In this document: positions 56,060-63,875 of the stretch, piece after piece
Layout: every line of letters begins with the position of its first letter
Position numbering within the stretch: position 1 is the stretch's first letter
DNA from: Gammaproteobacteria bacterium
GTDB lineage: Bacteria; Pseudomonadota; Gammaproteobacteria; Pseudomonadales; Pseudohongiellaceae
Length of the DNA stretch: 64,000 nt
Assembly: GCA_002731775.1 (NCBI GenBank)
Contig: PCCP01000082.1
Span: 2,091 to 66,090, forward strand
Direction: 5' to 3'
Position numbers and translations under genes: made by a program
Notes under the pieces: generated by a model
What the model saw: only the letters and a program-made list of their open reading frames with translations
What the model was told of the DNA's origin: nothing
Databases searched by the model: none

Positions 56060-56088
56060 TTAAGTTGTTACGTTGTGACTGTCCCCTA
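56060..56088. repeat. R7 motif (TTAAGTTGTTA-CGTTGTG) ending in CTGTCCCCTA
   Basis: TTAAGTTGTTACGTTGTGACTGTCCCCTA. The terminal CTA is the TAG stop (minus strand) of 56086..57123. Confidence 0.7.
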
Positions 56089-57123
56089 CAGACCAGCCTC
56101 ACGTTCTGCCCGACGGGCGCCTGCGAGAATTCCCGGCATCGCGTAGTTTCCCTCGTGGCAGGCATATTCATACATGCGCCCATCCAGAGGGTAGTAGCTC
56201 AATTCCGCGGTCCACGGCTGGCTGTAAAGATTGGAATCATCCACGGTAAACTGGTAGAGCATCTCGTTGTCGGCATAGCGGCTGAAGCGCTCGGTGATCT
56301 TGCCGTCTTGAGAGATTGCTATCGAACTTTGTCCCATCTGCAGCGGGTTGATATTGGTTGTCTCAATGATCAGTGTGTCGTCTTCATACCAACCGACAGA
56401 GTCTCCCAGCCATTGGCTCAATACCGCAGGTCGGCGATTGGCCCGTGCTTCTTCCGCCGTGGCAAAGATGGGAATGATGCGGGCGTCATGCACCATCTCC
56501 ACGTTGATCAATACATAATCATCCGTCTGCACAAACTGGTAGCTGCTATTGTAAAGCGTGCCCATCATTCCCGGACCCGCGGTGTTGCCGAAACCAATGA
56601 GGCAGCGTTCGGCTATTGGTATGGCTTCCGGGCCCGAGGCATCGGCGACACCAGTCAGATAGCGAGCACCGAACTGCCGTCGATTCAAGTCTACTTTGGG
56701 GTTCGCCAGTCTCGGGATCTGGCCGTTTTCCGGATTGACGATGTAAGAGGTTCGGAATTCACCTTTTACCAGCGCCAGTGACGAACCGGGGTCGGTCCAG
56801 AATAAATTATAACCACGCAGACCAAAATCCTGGCCTCCCACCGGAGGCGCACCGGTTTCGGGGTCGATCTCCGGGCCTGCAGCCAAATTTTCAGCCGATA
56901 TGCCGGCGATCGACATGGTGGCTACCATTTGTTGAGCCTGCTCGGCGGAAACAACAAGTGGTTCGATACCCCGTGGGCGAGTCAGGCCCGTTCGCGAAGC
57001 GTTGGTCCAGATCCCCGACAGCTCAGGTCTTGCAGAGTCCTGGGCCATGCTGGATGTGGATAGAATAAATAATGATAAGCCCAGGAGGGCTGAGGTAACT
57101 GTCAGTTGCTTGAATTTTGACAT
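56086..57123 (-). CDS. secreted protein of the YEYACHEGNY family (copy 6; close paralog of copy 2)
   Basis: Signal MSKFKQLTVTSALLGLSLFILSTSSMA. PELSGIWTN, NLFWTDPG, RTSYIVNPENGQIP, AERCLIGF, MVHDARIIP, LGDSVGWYEDDTLIIET, YEYACHEGNYAM. Confidence 0.9.
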   Translation of the reverse strand: MSKFKQLTVTSALLGLSLFILSTSSMAQDSARPELSGIWTNASRTGLTRPRGIEPLVVSAEQAQQMVATMSIAGISAENLAAGPEIDPETGAPPVGGQDFGLRGYNLFWTDPGSSLALVKGEFRTSYIVNPENGQIPRLANPKVDLNRRQFGARYLTGVADASGPEAIPIAERCLIGFGNTAGPGMMGTLYNSSYQFVQTDDYVLINVEMVHDARIIPIFATAEEARANRRPAVLSQWLGDSVGWYEDDTLIIETTNINPLQMGQSSIAISQDGKITERFSRYADNEMLYQFTVDDSNLYSQPWTAELSYYPLDGRMYEYACHEGNYAMPGILAGARRAEREAGL

Positions 57124-57323: not shown

Positions 57324-58601
57324 CTACTCACCTGGATTACGCCCATAGATCACGCTAGCTACTTTTACCTGGGCCGCCCCACTGATATCAGTCCAGGTCA
57401 CATAAACATCGTTACCCACGCTGTCGATAATGGGAAAGCCGCTGCGGCGCGATGCCTTGCTGTTTGCAATTTGGGTTGTTTCCAACAAGTTACCTTCGGC
57501 GCTGAATCGCGTGAGCATGATCTTCGCCTCGGGCCCTTCCATGTCCATCCAACTAACAGCGATATCGCCAGACTCAAGAATGGTAGTGCCGACGCGGCCG
57601 TTAGTAGTTTGACTCGCCACCAAGACAGGTGCCGAGAATGATTTACCGTTGTCCGTTGATACCACCAGTTGGACTAGTGGTGCATCGTCTTTGGCGGTAA
57701 ACCAGCTGACAGCCACCTGCTCGCCCCTGGCTGCGATGGCGGGTCCATTAACAGGACATCCGGCTATTTCCCAGCCATCATTGTGGATTGGCATGGGTTC
57801 TGTCCAGGCGCCTTTAACATAGCGGGTGATGTAGATATCTCGTATCTCCTGGTCGGAGCGATCTCGATACACCACTAGCGGTCCTGTAGCCGATATGGCA
57901 GCGCTGGTCTGGCAACAATCACAGACCCTATGATCCAATTCCCATTCGCTGACGGTTCCACCTGTTCTATCAAAAATGCCCGCCCGCAGGGTCATGGCAC
58001 CCGGCATGGCAGGTTCAGCCCTTGGGGGGGTAATGTGGTCGCCACTTCCGGCCGTTTCGCGTCCATCTAACCAGGAAATAAAAGTACGGCCTTCACTCAT
58101 CGGCAACATGGCAACAAATCCATGTTCGGCGCTGACACCATCTTTATGAATGGTAATGCCTTCGCCCCAGCTGTTGTTCGAGGCATTGTAAAACGCTACC
58201 TTGATATCGTAGTCATAGGTACCCTCGGCGCTCATGCTTAGCCAGTGGGCCGCCATATTATCGTCGTTCACCATCAGCGAGGGAAAATCGGCCCAGTTAT
58301 TAAACCAGTTTTCTCCCGAACTGATTATTGCCGGGTCAGTCCAGCGACCGCCTTCAAATTTTGAATAGCTCAATGTAGCCAACTCGTCTTCTCGAGTGAC
58401 CCAAGAAAGATATACCTGCCCCTTACTATCTGTTATGACGCGTGACAGGCTGCTGTTGATGTCCGCCGGTGATGGCATCGACTCGAGCACAGCGACATCG
58501 GCAGCTAGCAAGGATGTGCTCATGACTGTAAAACCGACACAGCTCACAATACAGATTGTAGTTAGCGGCCGTAAAAAAACAGTCGCCGTCGAATAATTCA
58601 T
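57324..58601 (-). CDS. exported BNR/sialidase-like beta-propeller protein
   Basis: 425 aa with signal peptide. BNR-like STDNGKSF. Repeated ..W(T/G)(E/D)P.. blade ends. Confidence 0.45.
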   Translation of the reverse strand: MNYSTATVFLRPLTTICIVSCVGFTVMSTSLLAADVAVLESMPSPADINSSLSRVITDSKGQVYLSWVTREDELATLSYSKFEGGRWTDPAIISSGENWFNNWADFPSLMVNDDNMAAHWLSMSAEGTYDYDIKVAFYNASNNSWGEGITIHKDGVSAEHGFVAMLPMSEGRTFISWLDGRETAGSGDHITPPRAEPAMPGAMTLRAGIFDRTGGTVSEWELDHRVCDCCQTSAAISATGPLVVYRDRSDQEIRDIYITRYVKGAWTEPMPIHNDGWEIAGCPVNGPAIAARGEQVAVSWFTAKDDAPLVQLVVSTDNGKSFSAPVLVASQTTNGRVGTTILESGDIAVSWMDMEGPEAKIMLTRFSAEGNLLETTQIANSKASRRSGFPIIDSVGNDVYVTWTDISGAAQVKVASVIYGRNPGE

Positions 58602-58621
58602 AGTGCGTTTGTTCCGGGCAA

Positions 58622-59089
58622 TTAATCTTTCTCTACTGGCAAGTTAAGGCTTGCTAATTGAGCCAGCAAACTCTCTTCCGTCTGCGCACCAATCATTTTT
58701 GCTACAACTTCACGCGCTGGTGACAAGATATAAGTGGTAGGCAATACATCTGGCGCCCTTAACTTAAATTCAGCCACGACGTCCATGGCTAAGGTCGGAA
58801 ATTCGATGCCCATGTCTGCGGCAATGGAGAGAGTAATCCCTTGGGGATCTTCATCGAAGTTGACACCGACTATGGTCACATTGGTGGATGAAAGGGTCTC
58901 ATTCAACGCATTAAGCACGGGGATTTCCAGGCGGCACGGTGCACACCACTCAGACCAGTAATTGACGATTAGCCATTTGGCTTCGGCTTGCGGTGATTGC
59001 GACGCCGCCCGCGAATCCTGCAACTGAATCATAGCCAGGGCCAAACCCACCAGCCCTGCGGCCACAATCATGGAGTGAACAATTTTCAA
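58622..59089 (-). CDS. TlpA/ResA-like periplasmic thiol:disulfide oxidoreductase
   Basis: 155 aa. N-terminal anchor. Thioredoxin motif NYWSEWCAPCRLEIP. Confidence 0.8.
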   Translation of the reverse strand: MKIVHSMIVAAGLVGLALAMIQLQDSRAASQSPQAEAKWLIVNYWSEWCAPCRLEIPVLNALNETLSSTNVTIVGVNFDEDPQGITLSIAADMGIEFPTLAMDVVAEFKLRAPDVLPTTYILSPAREVVAKMIGAQTEESLLAQLASLNLPVEKD

Positions 59090-59221
59090 TTTACTAATCC
59101 TGTTACAGACTGATAAACCAGTCGATGAAGCCTGGTTGGTATTTTTAAACGCATCATAACAGCACTGTTAAGTGGGAAGAAGAAAATCCGAGTTTGATGC
59201 CGGACAGGTGTCGAACTTGAG

Positions 59222-59242
59222 ATCGGGTCTCCGTTTGCACAC
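59222..59242. repeat. R5-type half-site
   Basis: ATCGGGTCTCCGTTTGCACAC. Confidence 0.6.
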
Positions 59243-59280
59243 TGTGCCCACGAAAAAGGAAAAAGATACATCTATATCGA

Positions 59281-60258
59281 CTATTCAATAACGCGGACAG
59301 TAACGTCGACATGCCCGGTTAAGCCACCATCATCAGCCCTGCCCCGCATCACATACTCGCCAGGTTCTTGAAAGATAGTTTCAGTCCGCACCACTCCATC
59401 CTCTGGCATTTCCGGCGGATCCCAAAACGGCGACCAGGGCGAATTCTGAAAGGCGCGGGTGTCTTCCCAGGTTTTCACCTGTAGGGTGTCATAACTAGGC
59501 TCCCCGTTGCCGCGATAGACAAACCAGGAGAAGGTCATGCCCACTACCCTGTCGACGGTGCCGCGGATGGGAGGCCGCAGGGCTTTTTCCAGCCGTTTCC
59601 GCGGGGTTTCGTCTTCATCGAGGGGCGCATAGCGTCGATAGGTACGATAATCGGGTTTTCCGTCGTCTACTATGGTTACTTCGAGTTGCAGGGGCTGACC
59701 CACCCGTACCATGCGCATGTTGTCGCCGTGCAGGATCACTGTGGGTGGGGCATTGCTCTGCACGTCGTCGGAGTTACTGAAGCCACCAGCCACAGTGCCG
59801 GATTCAGACATGATGGTGATGGGTTCCAGGACGTAGTCTTTGAGCAGGGAACCGTAGGCGGTCTGGGTGACGCCGTCGCCGTTGATCAGGGTCCACACCA
59901 ATTCACCTTCGAAGTCTGCCGCTACCTTGATGCCGAACACGTTACGGTTACGACGGGGAAGAAAATGGGTGGGTTGACCCCGGTCGGCTGGGCCCGGTGA
60001 AAAGGAATTTACCGGGCCGATGGGTACGTTCAGCTCCTGTTTCCAGTTTTCATTCATGTAACCGAACAACAGGGTATAGGAGCCATCTTCGTTGAGGACC
60101 CAGCCCTCGTAGGCGGGTGATATGCCTCTCCCAGATTCGTAGGAGGATTGGGACTGGGCGGCGGTATTACTGCTGAACAAAACTAGAGCCCACAGGAATA
60201 ACGCCGTTGATACAAATCGCGTTATTGCACTGCCTGTGGTATTGGCCCTGCTTTTCAA
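59281..60258 (-). CDS. hypothetical exported protein
   Basis: ORF 59281..60381 overlaps the upstream gene. Best start is TTG 60258 (AAGGA RBS 7 nt upstream), giving MKSRANTTGSAITRFVSTALFLWALVLFSSNTAA. No family recognised. Confidence 0.55.
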   Translation of the reverse strand: MKSRANTTGSAITRFVSTALFLWALVLFSSNTAAQSQSSYESGRGISPAYEGWVLNEDGSYTLLFGYMNENWKQELNVPIGPVNSFSPGPADRGQPTHFLPRRNRNVFGIKVAADFEGELVWTLINGDGVTQTAYGSLLKDYVLEPITIMSESGTVAGGFSNSDDVQSNAPPTVILHGDNMRMVRVGQPLQLEVTIVDDGKPDYRTYRRYAPLDEDETPRKRLEKALRPPIRGTVDRVVGMTFSWFVYRGNGEPSYDTLQVKTWEDTRAFQNSPWSPFWDPPEMPEDGVVRTETIFQEPGEYVMRGRADDGGLTGHVDVTVRVIE

Positions 60259-60313
60259 GAAATCGTCCTTCGCTCGCTTTACTTCCTTCACTCTCGCTTG
60301 CCGCAGCAGCTCG

Positions 60314-61735
60314 TCAGTCTTCCGCGCTATCGTCCACAGGCTCCAGCAGCGGAATGTCAGCCATGCACAGCGGACAGCCAATCAGGTGATCATTTTTAGT
60401 CAGGCCCAGGCGCTCGCGACGTTCCGCCATCTCCTGCACGAACTGTTCATCGGTCAACTCCACGGATTGCCCAAGATGGAGAAACATATTGGTGACCGAT
60501 CGATTGCCGGAGCCAGACCAGTTTCTCGCGTCCACCACATTGGGGTTGCTGGCGATGTTGTCCATGTAACCGATCATATGAAGAATGGTACCCTTGGGCA
60601 GCAGCGGCGCATAATCATCCTCGAAGGTATATTGCTTGACCCAGTTGTGGTCGTAACCGGAGCAGGCCAGGGTCTCGATCTGGTTGCCCCAGATGGCTTC
60701 CAAACACATACGCGCGCCGGGCGAATGCAGGTGCGGCTCGAAAGAGGAGATCTTGGTGTGCTCCTTGAGCACGGTGTAGGTGTGCAGCTCCTGCCCCGGC
60801 ATATTTCCCTGGATGCTGATGTTGAGCCCATCGCCGAGTGACCACAGGGCTTTCTTATGTTTCGGTTCATAGCCCTTCGGGTGAAAATAGAATCCCAGTT
60901 CCATGTGGCCGTTGGTGTCGCGGCCATTGGAGTGCAGGTGATAAGTCAGGGGCATGACACTGGAGCCCGCTGCCAGCAGGCGCCCGGCCTTGGGATCGAA
61001 AATATCTGGATTGCGGCCCAACTCATGTACCGGCCAGGTATCGCGCTCGTCGCCTGCGCCGATCACGGTGGTCTGCCAGGTCATGTGATGGACGATGTAG
61101 AGTCCACCAACGATAGTGCCACCTGCGTCGGAGGATTGCACATCATTCACTTCCCGCATATCCACCGCACTGACGTAGCGGTTCTCGGTCAGCCCGGTCA
61201 GTACCGGCGTACCACCAACCCAGGCATCCGCCGCACCGCCAGGGACATAAAAATCCTCCAAGGGTATGATCAGATCCGGCGGTCCCAGCCGCCACTCGTT
61301 GGAATCCCTGAATTCGGGCACTGGCGGCAGGTTCTCCGGATTGCCTTGTGGCGCGCCGTTGTCAGCCCAGTGGGCGATTAGTTGTAGTTGCTCCTCGCTG
61401 AGTCGCTCGTCATCCTTTACCTGTTGGATACCGATACTCCGCTCCAGGTAATAAGGCGGCATGGCGCCCATCTTGTCCCGCAAACCGGTCTTGTACTTGA
61501 TCACCGGCGCCCAGGGACGAACTTCTTGATAAGTCATCAGCGACATCGGTGCCACGCTGCCGGCGCGATGACATTTCACGCAGTTCTCATAGAGAATGGG
61601 GGCGATATCCTCGGCGAAGGTGACTTCCCCCAGCGTGTCATGGGAAGCGGATGACTGTGCAGCGACGCTGAGTGGCAGTGCCAGGCCCAGCAGCACGATG
61701 CTGGCGACCCAGCCTGGGGTAATAGATAGACGCAT
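60314..61735 (-). CDS. exported cytochrome c domain fused to a PHM/DBH-like copper type II monooxygenase fold
   Basis: Start moved to ATG 61735. Heme motif CVKCH followed by GSVAPMSLMTYQEVRPWA. Then VHHM, about 50 aa, YHLH, about 70 aa, PHLH, about 55 aa, LHMIGYM. This spacing resembles the HH/H and HxH/M copper sites of PHM. Confidence 0.5.
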   Translation of the reverse strand: MRLSITPGWVASIVLLGLALPLSVAAQSSASHDTLGEVTFAEDIAPILYENCVKCHRAGSVAPMSLMTYQEVRPWAPVIKYKTGLRDKMGAMPPYYLERSIGIQQVKDDERLSEEQLQLIAHWADNGAPQGNPENLPPVPEFRDSNEWRLGPPDLIIPLEDFYVPGGAADAWVGGTPVLTGLTENRYVSAVDMREVNDVQSSDAGGTIVGGLYIVHHMTWQTTVIGAGDERDTWPVHELGRNPDIFDPKAGRLLAAGSSVMPLTYHLHSNGRDTNGHMELGFYFHPKGYEPKHKKALWSLGDGLNISIQGNMPGQELHTYTVLKEHTKISSFEPHLHSPGARMCLEAIWGNQIETLACSGYDHNWVKQYTFEDDYAPLLPKGTILHMIGYMDNIASNPNVVDARNWSGSGNRSVTNMFLHLGQSVELTDEQFVQEMAERRERLGLTKNDHLIGCPLCMADIPLLEPVDDSAED

Positions 61736-61934: not shown

Positions 61935-63875
61935 TTGAAAAATAAAATTCTACCGCTTACTTGCTTCACTATTTCTCTCTCCTTTTTGTTCACCTACTCG
62001 GCAATTACACAAGCTGCTGAAGTCAACTCTGCCTGGAGCTACTGGGGCGCAACCAAGGCGTTCAATCGCTACTCCCCGGCAGCTCAGATCGATGCTGAAA
62101 GCGTATCTGAGCTGAAAATCCTCTGGCGGCGCCCCGCCGTCGATTCCTCAATAATGAGGGCCTACCCGGAATTGCGGGTATCCGGCAATCTGCGCTCCAC
62201 GCCGATCCTGATCGATGGGGTGCTCTACGCCGCCAATGGTGTCGGCCTGGCAGAGGCCTTCGACCCAGCCACGGGCGCGACCCTGTGGGTGCAGCTGCCC
62301 GATGCCCCTACGCAGGAATCGGTGCGCGGGGGCAGTACCCGCGGCCTGGAATACTGGGCCGATGGCTCTGATAGCCAGCTGCTGGTGATTCGCAAGGGCT
62401 ACCTCTATGCCCTGGATCCGGCGAGCGGCAAAGCCATTCCCCGTTTCGGTGACGCTGGCCGGGTTAGTCTGATTCCAGCGGGCGCCCATTCCTACAGCTA
62501 CAATTCTGGCGGGCCCATCGTGGTGAACGATGTGATTGTGGTTGCCGGTACGGTTGACGGCGCTGGCGACAGCGGTGCCAAGTGGCGGGGCGTGGCCTCG
62601 GAGGACGTGCGGGGTTACGACGTACGAAGCGGGGAGCTATTGTGGACATTTCACGCGGTGCCGCAGGAGGGTGAATTTGGATTCGACACCTGGGAAAACG
62701 ACTCCGCAAGAGAGTCCGGTGACCTCGGTGCCTGGTGCTGCCTGAGTGCAGACGAGGATCTTGGCTATGTGTATGTGCCTTTCACCGCGCCGACGGCCGC
62801 CTATTACGGTGGCCACCGCCCCGGGGACAACCTCTATTCCAATAGCCTGGTGGCCATCGATGTGACTACCGGGGAACGAGTCTGGCATTTCCAGATGGTG
62901 CATCATGACGTCTGGGAATACGACAATGTTGGCCCGCCGGTGCTGGGTGAGATCAACGTCGATGGGCGCACCATCAAGGCGGTAATGCAGGCCAACAAGA
63001 CCGGCTGGGTGTATGTGTTCGATCGGGTCACGGGCGAACCGGTGTGGCCTATTGAGGAGCTGCCGGTGCCACAGTCCGGCACGCCCGGCGAAGTGATGTC
63101 GCCTACCCAGCCCTTCCCCACCCGGCCGGCACCGATTGCGAGCCAGGGTGTTAGCCAGGCGGACATCATCGACTTCCCGGAAGTGGGCCAGATCGCCCGG
63201 GCGACGGTCGCGAATTTTGTGATCGGCCCTATCTTCACGCCTCCGTCTATTGCCAGTGACGAAGTGGGTAGCACCCAGGGCACACTGACACTGCCGGGCT
63301 CTTGGGGCTCGGCGAACTGGAACACCGGCGCCTTCGATCCGGTGACCGGCTATTACTACGGCTTCGCCAATGACATTCCCCGGGTTTACCGTCTGCAACT
63401 GGCCACCCAGGACGATGCCGAGATGGATTACTGGAGCCCCAATCGCGAAGCGCCTTATATCGATGGCATCCCGCTCACCAAACCACCCTGGGGTCGGATC
63501 ACCGCGATTGACATGAATCGTGGCGAACATGTGTGGCAAGTGGCTAACGGGGATTCCCTCAGTGATCACCGGTTACTGGCCGATCTCGATCTGCCGACCC
63601 TGGGCATCGCCAGCCGGCCGGTGGCGCTGGTCACCAGCACGCTGCTATTTATAGGCGAAGGCAGCAACCTGCACGGTGGGATCCAGCCCAATATGTGGGG
63701 AAGGATGTTCAAGGCCTATGACAAGTTGACCGGTGAGTTGCTTTGGGAGATGGAGTTACCCTCGGCAACCACAGGGGGACCTATGAGCTACATGCACGGG
63801 GACAAGCAGTACATCGTAGTAGCGCTGGGAAGTTTGGGTGGTGCTGCAGAGTGGGTGGCATTGGGGCTGCCTTGA
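61935..63875 (+). CDS. PQQ-dependent quinoprotein dehydrogenase (second paralog), exported
   Basis: 646 aa, TTG start, signal peptide. GERVWHFQMVHHDVWEYD, TGEPVWPIEE, PPWGRITAIDMNRGE. Confidence 0.85.
   Translation: MKNKILPLTCFTISLSFLFTYSAITQAAEVNSAWSYWGATKAFNRYSPAAQIDAESVSELKILWRRPAVDSSIMRAYPELRVSGNLRSTPILIDGVLYAANGVGLAEAFDPATGATLWVQLPDAPTQESVRGGSTRGLEYWADGSDSQLLVIRKGYLYALDPASGKAIPRFGDAGRVSLIPAGAHSYSYNSGGPIVVNDVIVVAGTVDGAGDSGAKWRGVASEDVRGYDVRSGELLWTFHAVPQEGEFGFDTWENDSARESGDLGAWCCLSADEDLGYVYVPFTAPTAAYYGGHRPGDNLYSNSLVAIDVTTGERVWHFQMVHHDVWEYDNVGPPVLGEINVDGRTIKAVMQANKTGWVYVFDRVTGEPVWPIEELPVPQSGTPGEVMSPTQPFPTRPAPIASQGVSQADIIDFPEVGQIARATVANFVIGPIFTPPSIASDEVGSTQGTLTLPGSWGSANWNTGAFDPVTGYYYGFANDIPRVYRLQLATQDDAEMDYWSPNREAPYIDGIPLTKPPWGRITAIDMNRGEHVWQVANGDSLSDHRLLADLDLPTLGIASRPVALVTSTLLFIGEGSNLHGGIQPNMWGRMFKAYDKLTGELLWEMELPSATTGGPMSYMHGDKQYIVVALGSLGGAAEWVALGLP

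What the first reader, a model, noticed from the sequence alone, without database searches (positions are those of the whole stretch)
58622..61735. Operon of a cytochrome c-fused PHM/DBH-like copper monooxygenase, an unknown exported protein and a TlpA-type thiol-disulfide oxidoreductase
Three minus-strand genes are separated by 55 nt and 191 nt. In 60314-61735, after the CVKCH heme domain, there is VHHM, then about 50 aa to YHLH, about 70 aa to PHLH, and about 55 aa to LHMIGYM. This resembles the CuH (His-His...His) and CuM (His-x-His...Met) ligand spacing of peptidylglycine alpha-hydroxylating monooxygenase and dopamine beta-monooxygenase. A fused heme c could replace ascorbate as the electron donor. 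TlpA-like proteins are known to reduce copper-site cysteines or to assist cytochrome maturation. No substrate for a bacterial enzyme of this type is known to me.
Basis: inference. Interest (0 to 1): 0.6.

Follow-up and report, generated by a model that had tools for sequence, protein, structure and literature searches.

The report
Haem-fused PHM-like copper monooxygenase pair
The first gene encodes an exported bacterial enzyme that joins a cytochrome c to the two-copper core of the animal enzymes that make amidated hormones and noradrenaline; it works with one conserved Ig-like partner gene, whereas the neighbouring TlpA-type thioredoxin belongs to a different gene pair.

Summary
The three minus-strand genes, the 55-nt and 191-nt gaps, CVKCH and the His motifs are all as described.

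Gene 1 (60314-61735) is a Sec-exported c-type cytochrome fused to a PHM/DBH-fold two-copper domain. The top 29 Foldseek hits are DBH and PHM. A profile-profile comparison with animal PHMs gives 96.9% probability and E 1.4e-10. All six copper ligands align: H216, H217 and H266 for CuH; H335, H337 and M417 for CuM.

Gene 2 (59281-60258) is a tandem Ig-like exported protein. It lies directly downstream of gene 1 in 69 of 75 loci from several phyla, and some lineages fuse the two into one polypeptide.

The TlpA-like gene is not part of this unit. It was found in 0 of 80 gene-1 loci. It forms its own conserved pair with the downstream BNR-like gene, and that pair occurs without genes 1 and 2.

This genome has 18 gene-1 paralogs. 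All 18 same-genus genomes searched carry 10-28 matches each. Five paralogs carry a fused AhpC/TSA-like domain.

The PHM substrate-binding residues are absent, so the substrate is unknown. I found no published study. This scan has reported the same family in other genomes before.

The parts
60314..61735 (-). Gene 1, 473 aa: signal peptide, mono-heme cytochrome c domain, PHM/DBH-fold two-copper domain and a C-terminal tail with CPLC.
   Evidence: ORF and RBS. More than 5357 homologues. Foldseek top hits are DBH and PHM. hhalign against the PHM profile gives 96.9%.
61658..61735 (-). Sec signal peptide, residues 1-26, with predicted cleavage at VAA|QS.
   Evidence: Read from the sequence. This is inference; no predictor was run.
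61331..61627 (-). Cytochrome c domain, about residues 37-135. CVKCH is at 61568-61582 (C52, C55, H56). The probable axial Met92 lies in GAMPP.
   Evidence: C, C, H and M are each conserved in about 99% of homologues. The Pfam Cytochrome_CBB3 hit is weak, 14.8 bits, but reaches 20-25 bits in paralogs.
60401..61285 (-). Two-jelly-roll copper domain, about residues 151-445. CuH ligands: H216 (61088-61090), H217 (61085-61087), H266 (60938-60940). CuM ligands: H335 (60731-60733), H337 (60725-60727), M417 (60485-60487).
   Evidence: These six residues are invariant in the paralog alignment A3. They align to PHM H107, H108, H172, H242, H244 and M314. Conservation is 84-99% in representatives that are less than 50% identical to one another.
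60365..60376 (-). C-terminal CPLC motif (C454-C457), specific to this subfamily. Its role is unknown.
   Evidence: Invariant in A1. Cys in 23 of 24 and 22 of 23 homologues that cover the site. Absent from 14 of the 18 own-genome paralogs.
59281..60258 (-). Gene 2, 325 aa: exported tandem Ig-like beta-sandwich protein, the conserved partner or subunit of gene 1.
   Evidence: AF2 pLDDT 84.9. Foldseek hits are tandem Ig domains. Directly downstream of gene 1 in 69 of 75 loci. Fused to gene 1 in P0147, P0150, P0153 and P0155.
58622..59089 (-). TlpA/ResA-type thioredoxin (WCAPC). It is NOT part of the gene 1-gene 2 unit; it is the first gene of a separate pair.
   Evidence: Pfam AhpC-TSA 46.7 bits and Thioredoxin 38.3 bits. 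Found in 0 of 80 gene-1 loci. Sits directly upstream of the BNR-like gene in L102-L115.
57324..58601 (-). Exported BNR/sialidase-like propeller candidate with VCDCC and GCP motifs. It starts 20 nt after the TlpA-like gene and is that gene's conserved partner.
   Evidence: Weak Pfam BNR_2 hit, 22.8 bits. The pair is conserved down to 54% identity, in loci whose retrieved flanks hold no gene 1 or 2.
56086..57123 (-). YEYACHEGNY-family exported protein, an occasional neighbour of the gene 1-gene 2 pair.
   Evidence: Follows gene 2 in L020/L022 and in own-genome contigs C118 and C81. Present in 9 of 80 loci.
61935..63875 (+). PQQ-dependent dehydrogenase, divergent from gene 1. The association is only weak.
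   Evidence: Pfam PQQ E = 5.9e-161. Paralogs lie near gene-1 paralogs at 5 own-genome loci, but the genome has about 36 copies. Present in 8 of 80 loci.

Best explanation
Genes 1 and 2 form a two-gene periplasmic oxygenase module. Gene 1 is exported by Sec. Its N-terminal domain binds one heme c (C52/C55 thioethers, H56 and M92 as axial ligands). The rest folds like PHM/DBH, with a CuH site (H216, H217, H266) and a CuM site (H335, H337, M417). I infer that a periplasmic one-electron carrier reduces the heme. The heme then passes electrons one at a time to CuH and on to CuM, taking the place of ascorbate. O2 is activated at CuM and a C-H bond of a periplasmic substrate is hydroxylated. Gene 2 is a tandem Ig-like protein with no conserved cofactor ligands. 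It acts as a physically associated subunit, for substrate binding or as a scaffold. The substrate is not peptidyl-glycine and remains unknown. The TlpA-like gene and the BNR-like gene downstream are a separate conserved pair that merely abuts this module in close relatives. Shown here: the fold, the homology, ligand conservation, the pair linkage, the fusions and the independence of TlpA. Inferred: heme and copper loading, the direction of electron flow, monooxygenase chemistry and the role of gene 2.
For: Fold and homology:
- The top 29 Foldseek hits against PDB are DBH (4zel) and PHM, with probability 1.0 and E from 7e-7 to 1e-4, covering about 290 columns.
- hhalign of the paralog profile A3 against an animal PHM profile A5 gives 96.9%, E = 1.4e-10, over 229 columns. 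HH, H, HxH and M are all in register.
- The rat PHM reference sequence was verified as identical to PDB 5wm0_A.
- Pfam Cu2_monoox_C matches 8 places in the genome, all inside gene-1 paralogs. One scores 30.2 bits on the DNA and 26.8 bits on the protein, above the cut-off of 23.

Ligand conservation:
- The six ligands are invariant in the 14-sequence paralog alignment A3, which left out four of the 18 paralogs, among them one that lacks HxH, and 84-99% conserved in about 100 representatives that are less than 50% identical to one another. The heme motif and M92 are about 99% conserved.

Partner gene:
- Gene 2 is directly downstream in 69 of 75 loci from Gammaproteobacteria, Gemmatimonadota and Acidobacteriota.
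- It is adjacent to about half of the own-genome paralogs: nine gene-2 copies, one of them shared by a tandem gene-1 cluster.
- Natural fusions exist in three architectures, g1-g2, g2-g1 and g2N-g1-g2C, each without the internal signal peptide.

TlpA:
- No TlpA homologue was found in 80 gene-1 loci.
- The tlpA-bnr pair recurs in 14 loci. Ten of them show no gene 1 or 2 in the retrieved flanks, about 1.1-3.5 kb upstream of the TlpA-like gene.
Against: - The window protein itself has no Pfam or NCBIfam copper-domain hit and no PDB sequence hit.
- The gene-1 model has only moderate confidence (pLDDT 68.7). I could not read coordinates, so the heme-to-CuH distance and ligand geometry are untested.
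- The subfamily carries extra conserved residues (H237, H268, H363, H386, C344, C358 and CPLC) whose role I cannot explain.
- The 191-nt gap before the TlpA-like gene has only a weak terminator-like hairpin, so read-through transcription into tlpA is not excluded.
Confidence: 0.72

Rival explanations
1. One reading: genes 1, 2 and the TlpA-like gene are one functional operon. TlpA reduces cysteines of gene 1 (the heme CxxCH or the C-terminal CPLC) for cofactor loading.
For: All three genes are on the same strand and adjacent, with no strong terminator in the 191-nt gap. Gene 1 has an invariant CPLC motif. Five own-genome paralogs carry an N-terminal AhpC/TSA-like domain fused to the cytochrome-copper core. 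The arrangement g1-g2-tlpA-bnr is kept in relatives of 86-87% identity (L103, L104).
Against: No TlpA homologue was found in 80 gene-1 loci, all of the CPLC subfamily, nor in L001-L003, L020 or L021. The three other CPLC paralogs in this genome have no TlpA neighbour. TlpA stays with the BNR-like gene down to 54% identity, with no gene 1 or 2 in the retrieved flanks. The fused redoxin-like domains mostly lack the CxxC cysteines.
Confidence: 0.07
2. Gene 1 has the PHM fold and binds the metals but is not a substrate hydroxylase. It would be a cytochrome c-driven oxidase or reductase that handles O2, H2O2, superoxide or another small molecule, or a pure electron-transfer protein.
For: No substrate is known. 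The PHM substrate-binding residues are absent (R240 aligns with E333, N316 with L419, Y318 with L421). The fused AhpC/TSA-like domains in paralogs hint at peroxide chemistry.
Against: To my knowledge, all characterised enzymes with this ligand set (PHM, DBH, tyramine beta-monooxygenase) are C-H hydroxylases. The large paralog diversification (18 copies here, 10-28 in the genus), with variation at the R240-equivalent position (E/Q/R/G), fits diversification of substrates better than a single small-molecule role.
Confidence: 0.15
3. Gene 2 is the substrate of gene 1, not a subunit. By analogy with PHM acting on peptides, an exported protein would be post-translationally hydroxylated.
For: The pairing is strict one-to-one and the pair duplicates as a unit. 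Gene 2 has no cofactor ligands.
Against: Covalent fusions occur in three architectures, including gene 1 inserted between the two Ig domains of gene 2. These fit a stable complex better than an enzyme-substrate pair. An enzyme dedicated stoichiometrically to one protein substrate would be unusual.
Confidence: 0.08

Closest known systems
Peptidylglycine alpha-hydroxylating monooxygenase (PHM, catalytic core of PAM; PDB 1PHM, 1SDW, 5WM0; Pfam PF01082 + PF03712)
   Same: Two jelly-roll domains and a non-coupled two-copper ligand set. This includes the HHM motif, H-x-H-x-x-G and (D/E/N)-M. All six ligands align.
   Different: - No Pfam hit for the window protein itself.
- A cytochrome c is fused at the N-terminus, so ascorbate is presumably not the donor.
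- The PHM substrate residues R240, N316 and Y318 and the PHM disulfide cysteines are not retained.
- It is periplasmic and bacterial, has an obligate Ig-like partner, and carries a C-terminal CPLC tail.
Dopamine beta-hydroxylase (PDB 4ZEL) and the DBH-like monooxygenases (MOXD1, tyramine beta-monooxygenase)
   Same: It is the best Foldseek hit (E = 7.3e-7). It also has an extra N-terminal domain in front of the copper core.
   Different: The DBH N-terminal domain is a DOMON domain, not a c-type cytochrome. DBH is a eukaryotic secretory-pathway enzyme that depends on ascorbate.
Redoxin-cytochrome c-Cu2_monoox_C fusion proteins of bacteria (annotated 'redoxin domain protein' or 'mono/diheme cytochrome c family protein'; uncharacterised)
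   Same: Same superfamily. Five such paralogs are in this genome and hit Pfam AhpC-TSA and Cu2_monoox_C.
   Different: The window gene lacks the redoxin-like domain and has a gene-2 partner instead. The redoxin-fused paralogs have no gene-2 neighbour in the same operon.
Cytochrome c-driven bacterial LPMOs (Cellvibrio japonicus system, PMC8981238)
   Same: A c-type cytochrome supplies electrons to an exported copper monooxygenase (title and abstract of PMC8981238).
   Different: The fold (histidine-brace mono-copper) is unrelated, the cytochrome is a separate protein, and the substrate is polysaccharide.

Membership tests
Copper type II monooxygenase superfamily (PHM/DBH; Pfam PF01082 + PF03712) | Two consecutive jelly-roll beta-sandwich domains | tested here: met
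   Foldseek top 29 hits are PHM or DBH, probability 1.0, about 290 aligned columns. hhalign gives 96.9% over 229 columns spanning both domains.
Copper type II monooxygenase superfamily (PHM/DBH; Pfam PF01082 + PF03712) | CuH ligands His-His ... His | tested here: met
   H216, H217 and H266 align to PHM H107, H108 and H172. They are invariant in the 14-sequence paralog alignment A3 and 84-92% conserved in representatives.
Copper type II monooxygenase superfamily (PHM/DBH; Pfam PF01082 + PF03712) | CuM ligands His-x-His ... Met | tested here: met
   H335, H337 and M417 align to PHM H242, H244 and M314. They are 94-99% conserved.
Copper type II monooxygenase superfamily (PHM/DBH; Pfam PF01082 + PF03712) | Score above the Pfam gathering threshold for PF01082 or PF03712 | tested here: not met
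   The window protein has no hit. The link is transitive only: paralog C59_18311 scores 26.8 bits against a cut-off of 23 for PF03712. PF01082 is never reached.
Copper type II monooxygenase superfamily (PHM/DBH; Pfam PF01082 + PF03712) | Binds two copper ions and hydroxylates a C-H bond with O2 | not testable with these tools
   Needs purified protein, metal analysis and activity assays.
PHM proper (EC 1.14.17.3) | Residues R240, N316 and Y318 that bind the peptidyl-glycine carboxylate (from the PHM-substrate structure, as I recall it) | tested here: not met
   R196, N272 and Y274 of the PHM alignment are invariant in A5. The aligned positions in gene 1 are E333, L419 and L421.
PHM proper (EC 1.14.17.3) | Conserved disulfide cysteines of the PHM core | tested here: not met
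   The invariant cysteines of A5 have no counterpart in A3. Gene 1 has only C344 and C358 in the core.
Class I-type c cytochrome | CxxCH heme-attachment motif plus a distal Met | tested here: met
   C52, C55, H56 and M92 are each conserved in about 99% of homologues. The Pfam cytochrome hits are sub-threshold for the window protein, 14.8 bits. Heme attachment itself cannot be tested here.
TlpA/ResA/CcmG thiol-disulfide oxidoreductases (gene 58622-59089) | Thioredoxin fold with a W-C-x-P-C active site and an N-terminal membrane anchor or signal | tested here: met
   Pfam AhpC-TSA 46.7 bits and Thioredoxin 38.3 bits. NCBIfam ResA and TlpA hits are below their cut-offs. WCAPC is in the sequence.
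Proposed three-gene operon (gene 1 + gene 2 + TlpA) | Conserved co-occurrence of the TlpA-like gene with the gene 1-gene 2 pair | tested here: not met
   0 of 80 loci. The tlpA-bnr pair recurs in ten loci whose retrieved flanks hold no gene 1 or 2.

The most novel reading that the evidence does not exclude
The genus this genome belongs to (apparently Pseudohongiella or close kin) has expanded the heme-copper monooxygenase plus Ig-partner module into 10-28 matches (paralogs) per genome. These would serve as a periplasmic toolkit for hydroxylating C-H bonds in diverse recalcitrant dissolved organic compounds. The module would work with the equally expanded PQQ dehydrogenases (about 36 copies) and FABP-like YEYAC carriers (about 35 copies). 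The monooxygenase makes an alcohol, a PQQ dehydrogenase oxidises it, and the electrons return through c-type cytochromes to the monooxygenase heme. The pathway would then run without cytoplasmic reductant.
Probability: 0.12. Interest if true: 0.85.

Novelty: new variant of a known kind. Interest (0 to 1): 0.6.

Why it matters
Non-coupled two-copper monooxygenases are known only as ascorbate-dependent animal enzymes such as PHM, DBH and tyramine beta-monooxygenase. Here the same catalytic core sits in a very large bacterial family: 14,075 clusters at 50% identity match at E below 1e-3. In that family the core is fused to a c-type cytochrome and tied to an obligate Ig-like subunit. I found no studied member.

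If the heme really feeds CuH, the family gives a natural system for studying the long-debated CuH-to-CuM electron transfer with a defined one-electron donor. It would also point to an unrecognised route of periplasmic C-H oxidation in abundant marine and soil bacteria (Pseudohongiella, Vicinamibacterales, Gemmatimonadota).

For annotation, the result separates two conserved gene pairs that look like a single operon.

Tried and rejected
- **Direct family and structure searches.** Pfam and NCBIfam scans of genes 1 and 2 found nothing beyond a weak cytochrome hit. PDB searches with gene 1, with profile A1, with paralog C59_18311 and with profile A3 found no PHM hit.
- **hhalign against a single PHM sequence.** The ligands were collinear but the score was weak (E = 0.063). 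I replaced it with a PHM family profile, which gave E = 1.4e-10.
Rejected on conservation.
- **TlpA as a member of the operon.** Rejected.
- **A redoxin fusion as support for TlpA.** The fused AhpC/TSA-like domains mostly lack CxxC, so this support is weak.
- **PQQ dehydrogenase linkage.** Five own-genome gene-1 loci have one nearby. With about 36 copies in 3.47 Mb I would expect about 2 by chance, and only 8 of 80 foreign loci have one. I treat the link as weak.
- **Pfam on gene-2 relatives and fusion proteins.** Only a sub-threshold DUF6538 hit on one homologue.
- **Literature.** Seven searches found no study of a bacterial cytochrome-fused PHM-like enzyme.
- **Model coordinates.** They are not readable with these tools, so metal-site geometry and heme-copper distance were not measured.
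Full report
**Observation.** The minus strand of 57.3-61.8 kb holds a run of ORFs.
- Gene 1 runs 60314-61735. Its ATG is preceded by GAAGGAG, and the 473-aa length matches homologue P0001.
- Gene 2 runs 59281-60258, with a TTG start preceded by AAGGA.
- A TlpA-like gene runs 58622-59089.
- A 425-aa BNR-like gene starts 20 nt further on (57324-58601).

The gaps of 55 and 191 nt are correct. So are CVKCH (C52-H56), VHHM (216-218), YHLH (266-268), PHLH (335-337) and LHMIGYM (386-391). Pfam and NCBIfam give gene 1 only a weak cytochrome hit and give gene 2 nothing. The third gene is a clear thioredoxin-fold protein (AhpC-TSA 46.7 bits, WCAPC).

**What gene 1 is.** It belongs to a very large unannotated family. 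More than 5357 proteins match at the 90% clustering level, and sources name them at most 'mono/diheme cytochrome c family protein'. A search of 50%-identity representatives found 14,075 clusters at E <= 1e-3 and 7,955 at E <= 1e-10.

An AlphaFold2 model (pLDDT 68.7) searched against the PDB gives human dopamine beta-hydroxylase first. PHM entries fill nearly all of ranks 2-29, with the second DBH chain at rank 14. All have probability 1.0 and E from 7e-7 to 1e-4, over about 290 columns.

Sequence searches against the PDB found nothing, but two independent sequence routes support homology.
- The Pfam model Cu2_monoox_C (PF03712) matches eight places in the window's own genome. Every one lies inside a paralog of gene 1, and one is above the curated cut-off. 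Those paralogs match gene 1 at E from 1e-18 to 1e-170.
- A profile of the catalytic domains of 14 own-genome paralogs (A3) compared with a profile of 27 animal PHMs (A5) gives 96.9% probability and E = 1.4e-10 over 229 columns spanning both domains.

**Ligands.** Apart from glycines, prolines and a few other residues, the invariant columns of A3 are exactly H216, H217, H266, H335, H337 and M417. In both hhalign runs they align with PHM H107, H108, H172, H242, H244 and M314, and M218 aligns with M109 of the HHM motif.

I checked conservation across 150 representatives that are less than 50% identical to one another, plus the 17 paralogs.

| Site | Conserved where the column is covered |
|---|---|
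| Heme Cys, Cys, His and M92 | about 99% |
| H216 / H217 | 85% / 84% |
| H266 | 92% |
| H335 / H337 | 94% / 95% |
| M417 | 97-99% |

The residues that hold the glycine carboxylate in PHM are R240, N316 and Y318, which are invariant R196, N272 and Y274 in A5. They align with E333, L419 and L421. The PHM disulfide cysteines also have no counterpart. Gene 1 is therefore a member of the superfamily but not a peptidylglycine hydroxylase. The R240-equivalent position varies among homologues (E 55, Q 23, R 8), which fits diversified substrates.

This subfamily has extra conserved residues that I cannot explain: H237, H268, H363, H386, C344, C358 and a C-terminal NDHxIGCPLC.

**Gene 2.** It is exported and has 4693 homologues, all named 'hypothetical'. 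It has no conserved Cys, His or Met ligand set. Its model (pLDDT 84.9) matches only tandem Ig-like beta-sandwich proteins.

It is the real partner of gene 1.
- In 80 loci retrieved from species-representative genomes (Pseudohongiella and other Gammaproteobacteria, Longimicrobiales and other Gemmatimonadota, Vicinamibacterales and other Acidobacteriota), gene 2 lies directly downstream in 69 of the 75 loci with at least 1 kb of downstream sequence. It lies directly upstream in two more.
- In the window's own genome, nine gene-2 copies sit beside gene-1 paralogs, in either order. One of them precedes a tandem run of three gene-1 copies.
- Among the representatives there are single polypeptides with g1-g2 (P0147, P0150), g2-g1 (P0155) and g2N-g1-g2C (P0153). 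Each lacks the internal signal peptide, so they are true fusions and not read-through.

This is strong evidence that the two proteins act as one physical unit.

**The TlpA-like gene.** No homologue of it occurs in any of the 80 loci, nor in five further loci around close and distant orthologues. The three other CPLC-type paralogs in this genome also lack one.

I then searched metagenome contigs with the downstream BNR-like protein. The TlpA-like gene sits directly upstream of the BNR-like gene in 14 loci, with BNR identity from 100% down to 54%. Only the three closest (>= 86%) also carry genes 1 and 2. In the next ten I found no gene 1 or 2 in the retrieved flanks, which reach about 1.1-3.5 kb upstream of the TlpA-like gene.

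The apparent three-gene operon is therefore two conserved pairs placed side by side: gene 1 with gene 2, and tlpA with bnr. Most of these domains have lost the CxxC cysteines, and those paralogs do not have gene 2 in their operon.

**Genomic context.** The genome (3.47 Mb, 126 contigs, 90% complete) holds 18 gene-1 paralogs, 10 gene-2 paralogs, about 35 YEYACHEGNY-family genes and about 36 PQQ dehydrogenases. All 18 other genomes searched from the same genus have 10-28 matches to gene 1 at E <= 1e-10. None of 12 genomes from other families of the order has any.

The YEYAC family follows gene 2 at several places: own contigs C118 and C81, locus L020/L022, and 9 of 80 loci overall. A PQQ dehydrogenase is near 5 own-genome loci and 8 of 80 foreign loci. 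Given the copy numbers, both links are weak.

**Mechanism.** This part is inferred. The fused heme c accepts single electrons from the periplasmic electron-transfer pool and reduces CuH. CuH reduces CuM, where O2 is activated and a substrate C-H bond is hydroxylated. This is the established PHM/DBH chemistry with the heme in the place of ascorbate. Gene 2 would supply substrate binding or scaffolding. Nothing here tests metal loading, electron flow or chemistry.

**Prior knowledge.** Seven full-text searches found no study of such a bacterial enzyme. A 2022 paper describes the PHM family as widespread in eukaryotes (PMC8812541).

This scan has already reported the same family many times on other DNA, with the same reading: cytochrome-fused PHM-like enzyme, Ig-like partner, occasional fusions and redoxin-fused variants. 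My tests reach those conclusions independently. They add three things: the exclusion of TlpA, the corrected Met ligand, and the genus-wide expansion.

**Verdict.** This is an uncharacterised bacterial variant of a known enzyme kind. It is of real interest to copper-enzyme biochemistry, but its substrate is unknown.

Noticed in passing
window 57324-59089 (-): A TlpA-like WCAPC thioredoxin and an exported BNR/sialidase-like propeller candidate (motifs VCDCCQTS and AGCPVNG) form a conserved gene pair. It occurs in 14 metagenome loci, down to 54% identity. This may be a reductase and its client.
   Followed up: partly
own genome (G000), whole: Periplasmic families are strongly expanded in 3.47 Mb: about 36 PQQ-dependent dehydrogenases, about 35 YEYACHEGNY-family proteins, 18 cytochrome-PHM-like genes and 10 Ig-like partners.
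   Followed up: partly
G000 contig C71:8594-16303: This cluster holds one partner gene followed by three tandem gene-1 paralogs. A redoxin-fused paralog lies divergently next to it, and its CuM H-x-H is replaced by R-x-S (RARMSY), so it is a probably inactive copy.
   Followed up: no
G000 contigs C106, C113, C11, C71, C123 (gene-2 paralogs): Distant gene-2 paralogs end in a conserved vicinal-cysteine motif, CC[WH][TS]N. Where a gene-1 neighbour is present (four of the five contigs; none was found beside the C123 copy), it lacks the CPLC tail. The CPLC-type gene-1 copies have partners without this CC motif. A cysteine pair may therefore be needed in one subunit or the other.
   Followed up: no
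P0153 (representative protein, 697 aa): The cytochrome-copper enzyme is inserted between the two Ig-like domains of the partner, in one polypeptide with a single N-terminal signal peptide.
   Followed up: partly
L003 3126-7659 (= L030): A Longimicrobiales genome carries a split copy of gene 1 (a cytochrome piece and a catalytic piece as separate ORFs), then the partner gene, then a full-length copy.
   Followed up: no
L002 3057-7410: In one genome, three YEYAC-like genes and a DUF6152 gene lie directly upstream of the gene 1-gene 2 pair. This links the module loosely to the FABP-like/DUF6152 system noted earlier in this window.
   Followed up: no
G014:C77:56346-57753: The only same-genus match above 60% identity to the window's gene 1 is in two abutting pieces (75% and 83% identity), which suggests a frameshifted orthologue. 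Other species of the genus have only the 57%-identical paralog type.
   Followed up: no
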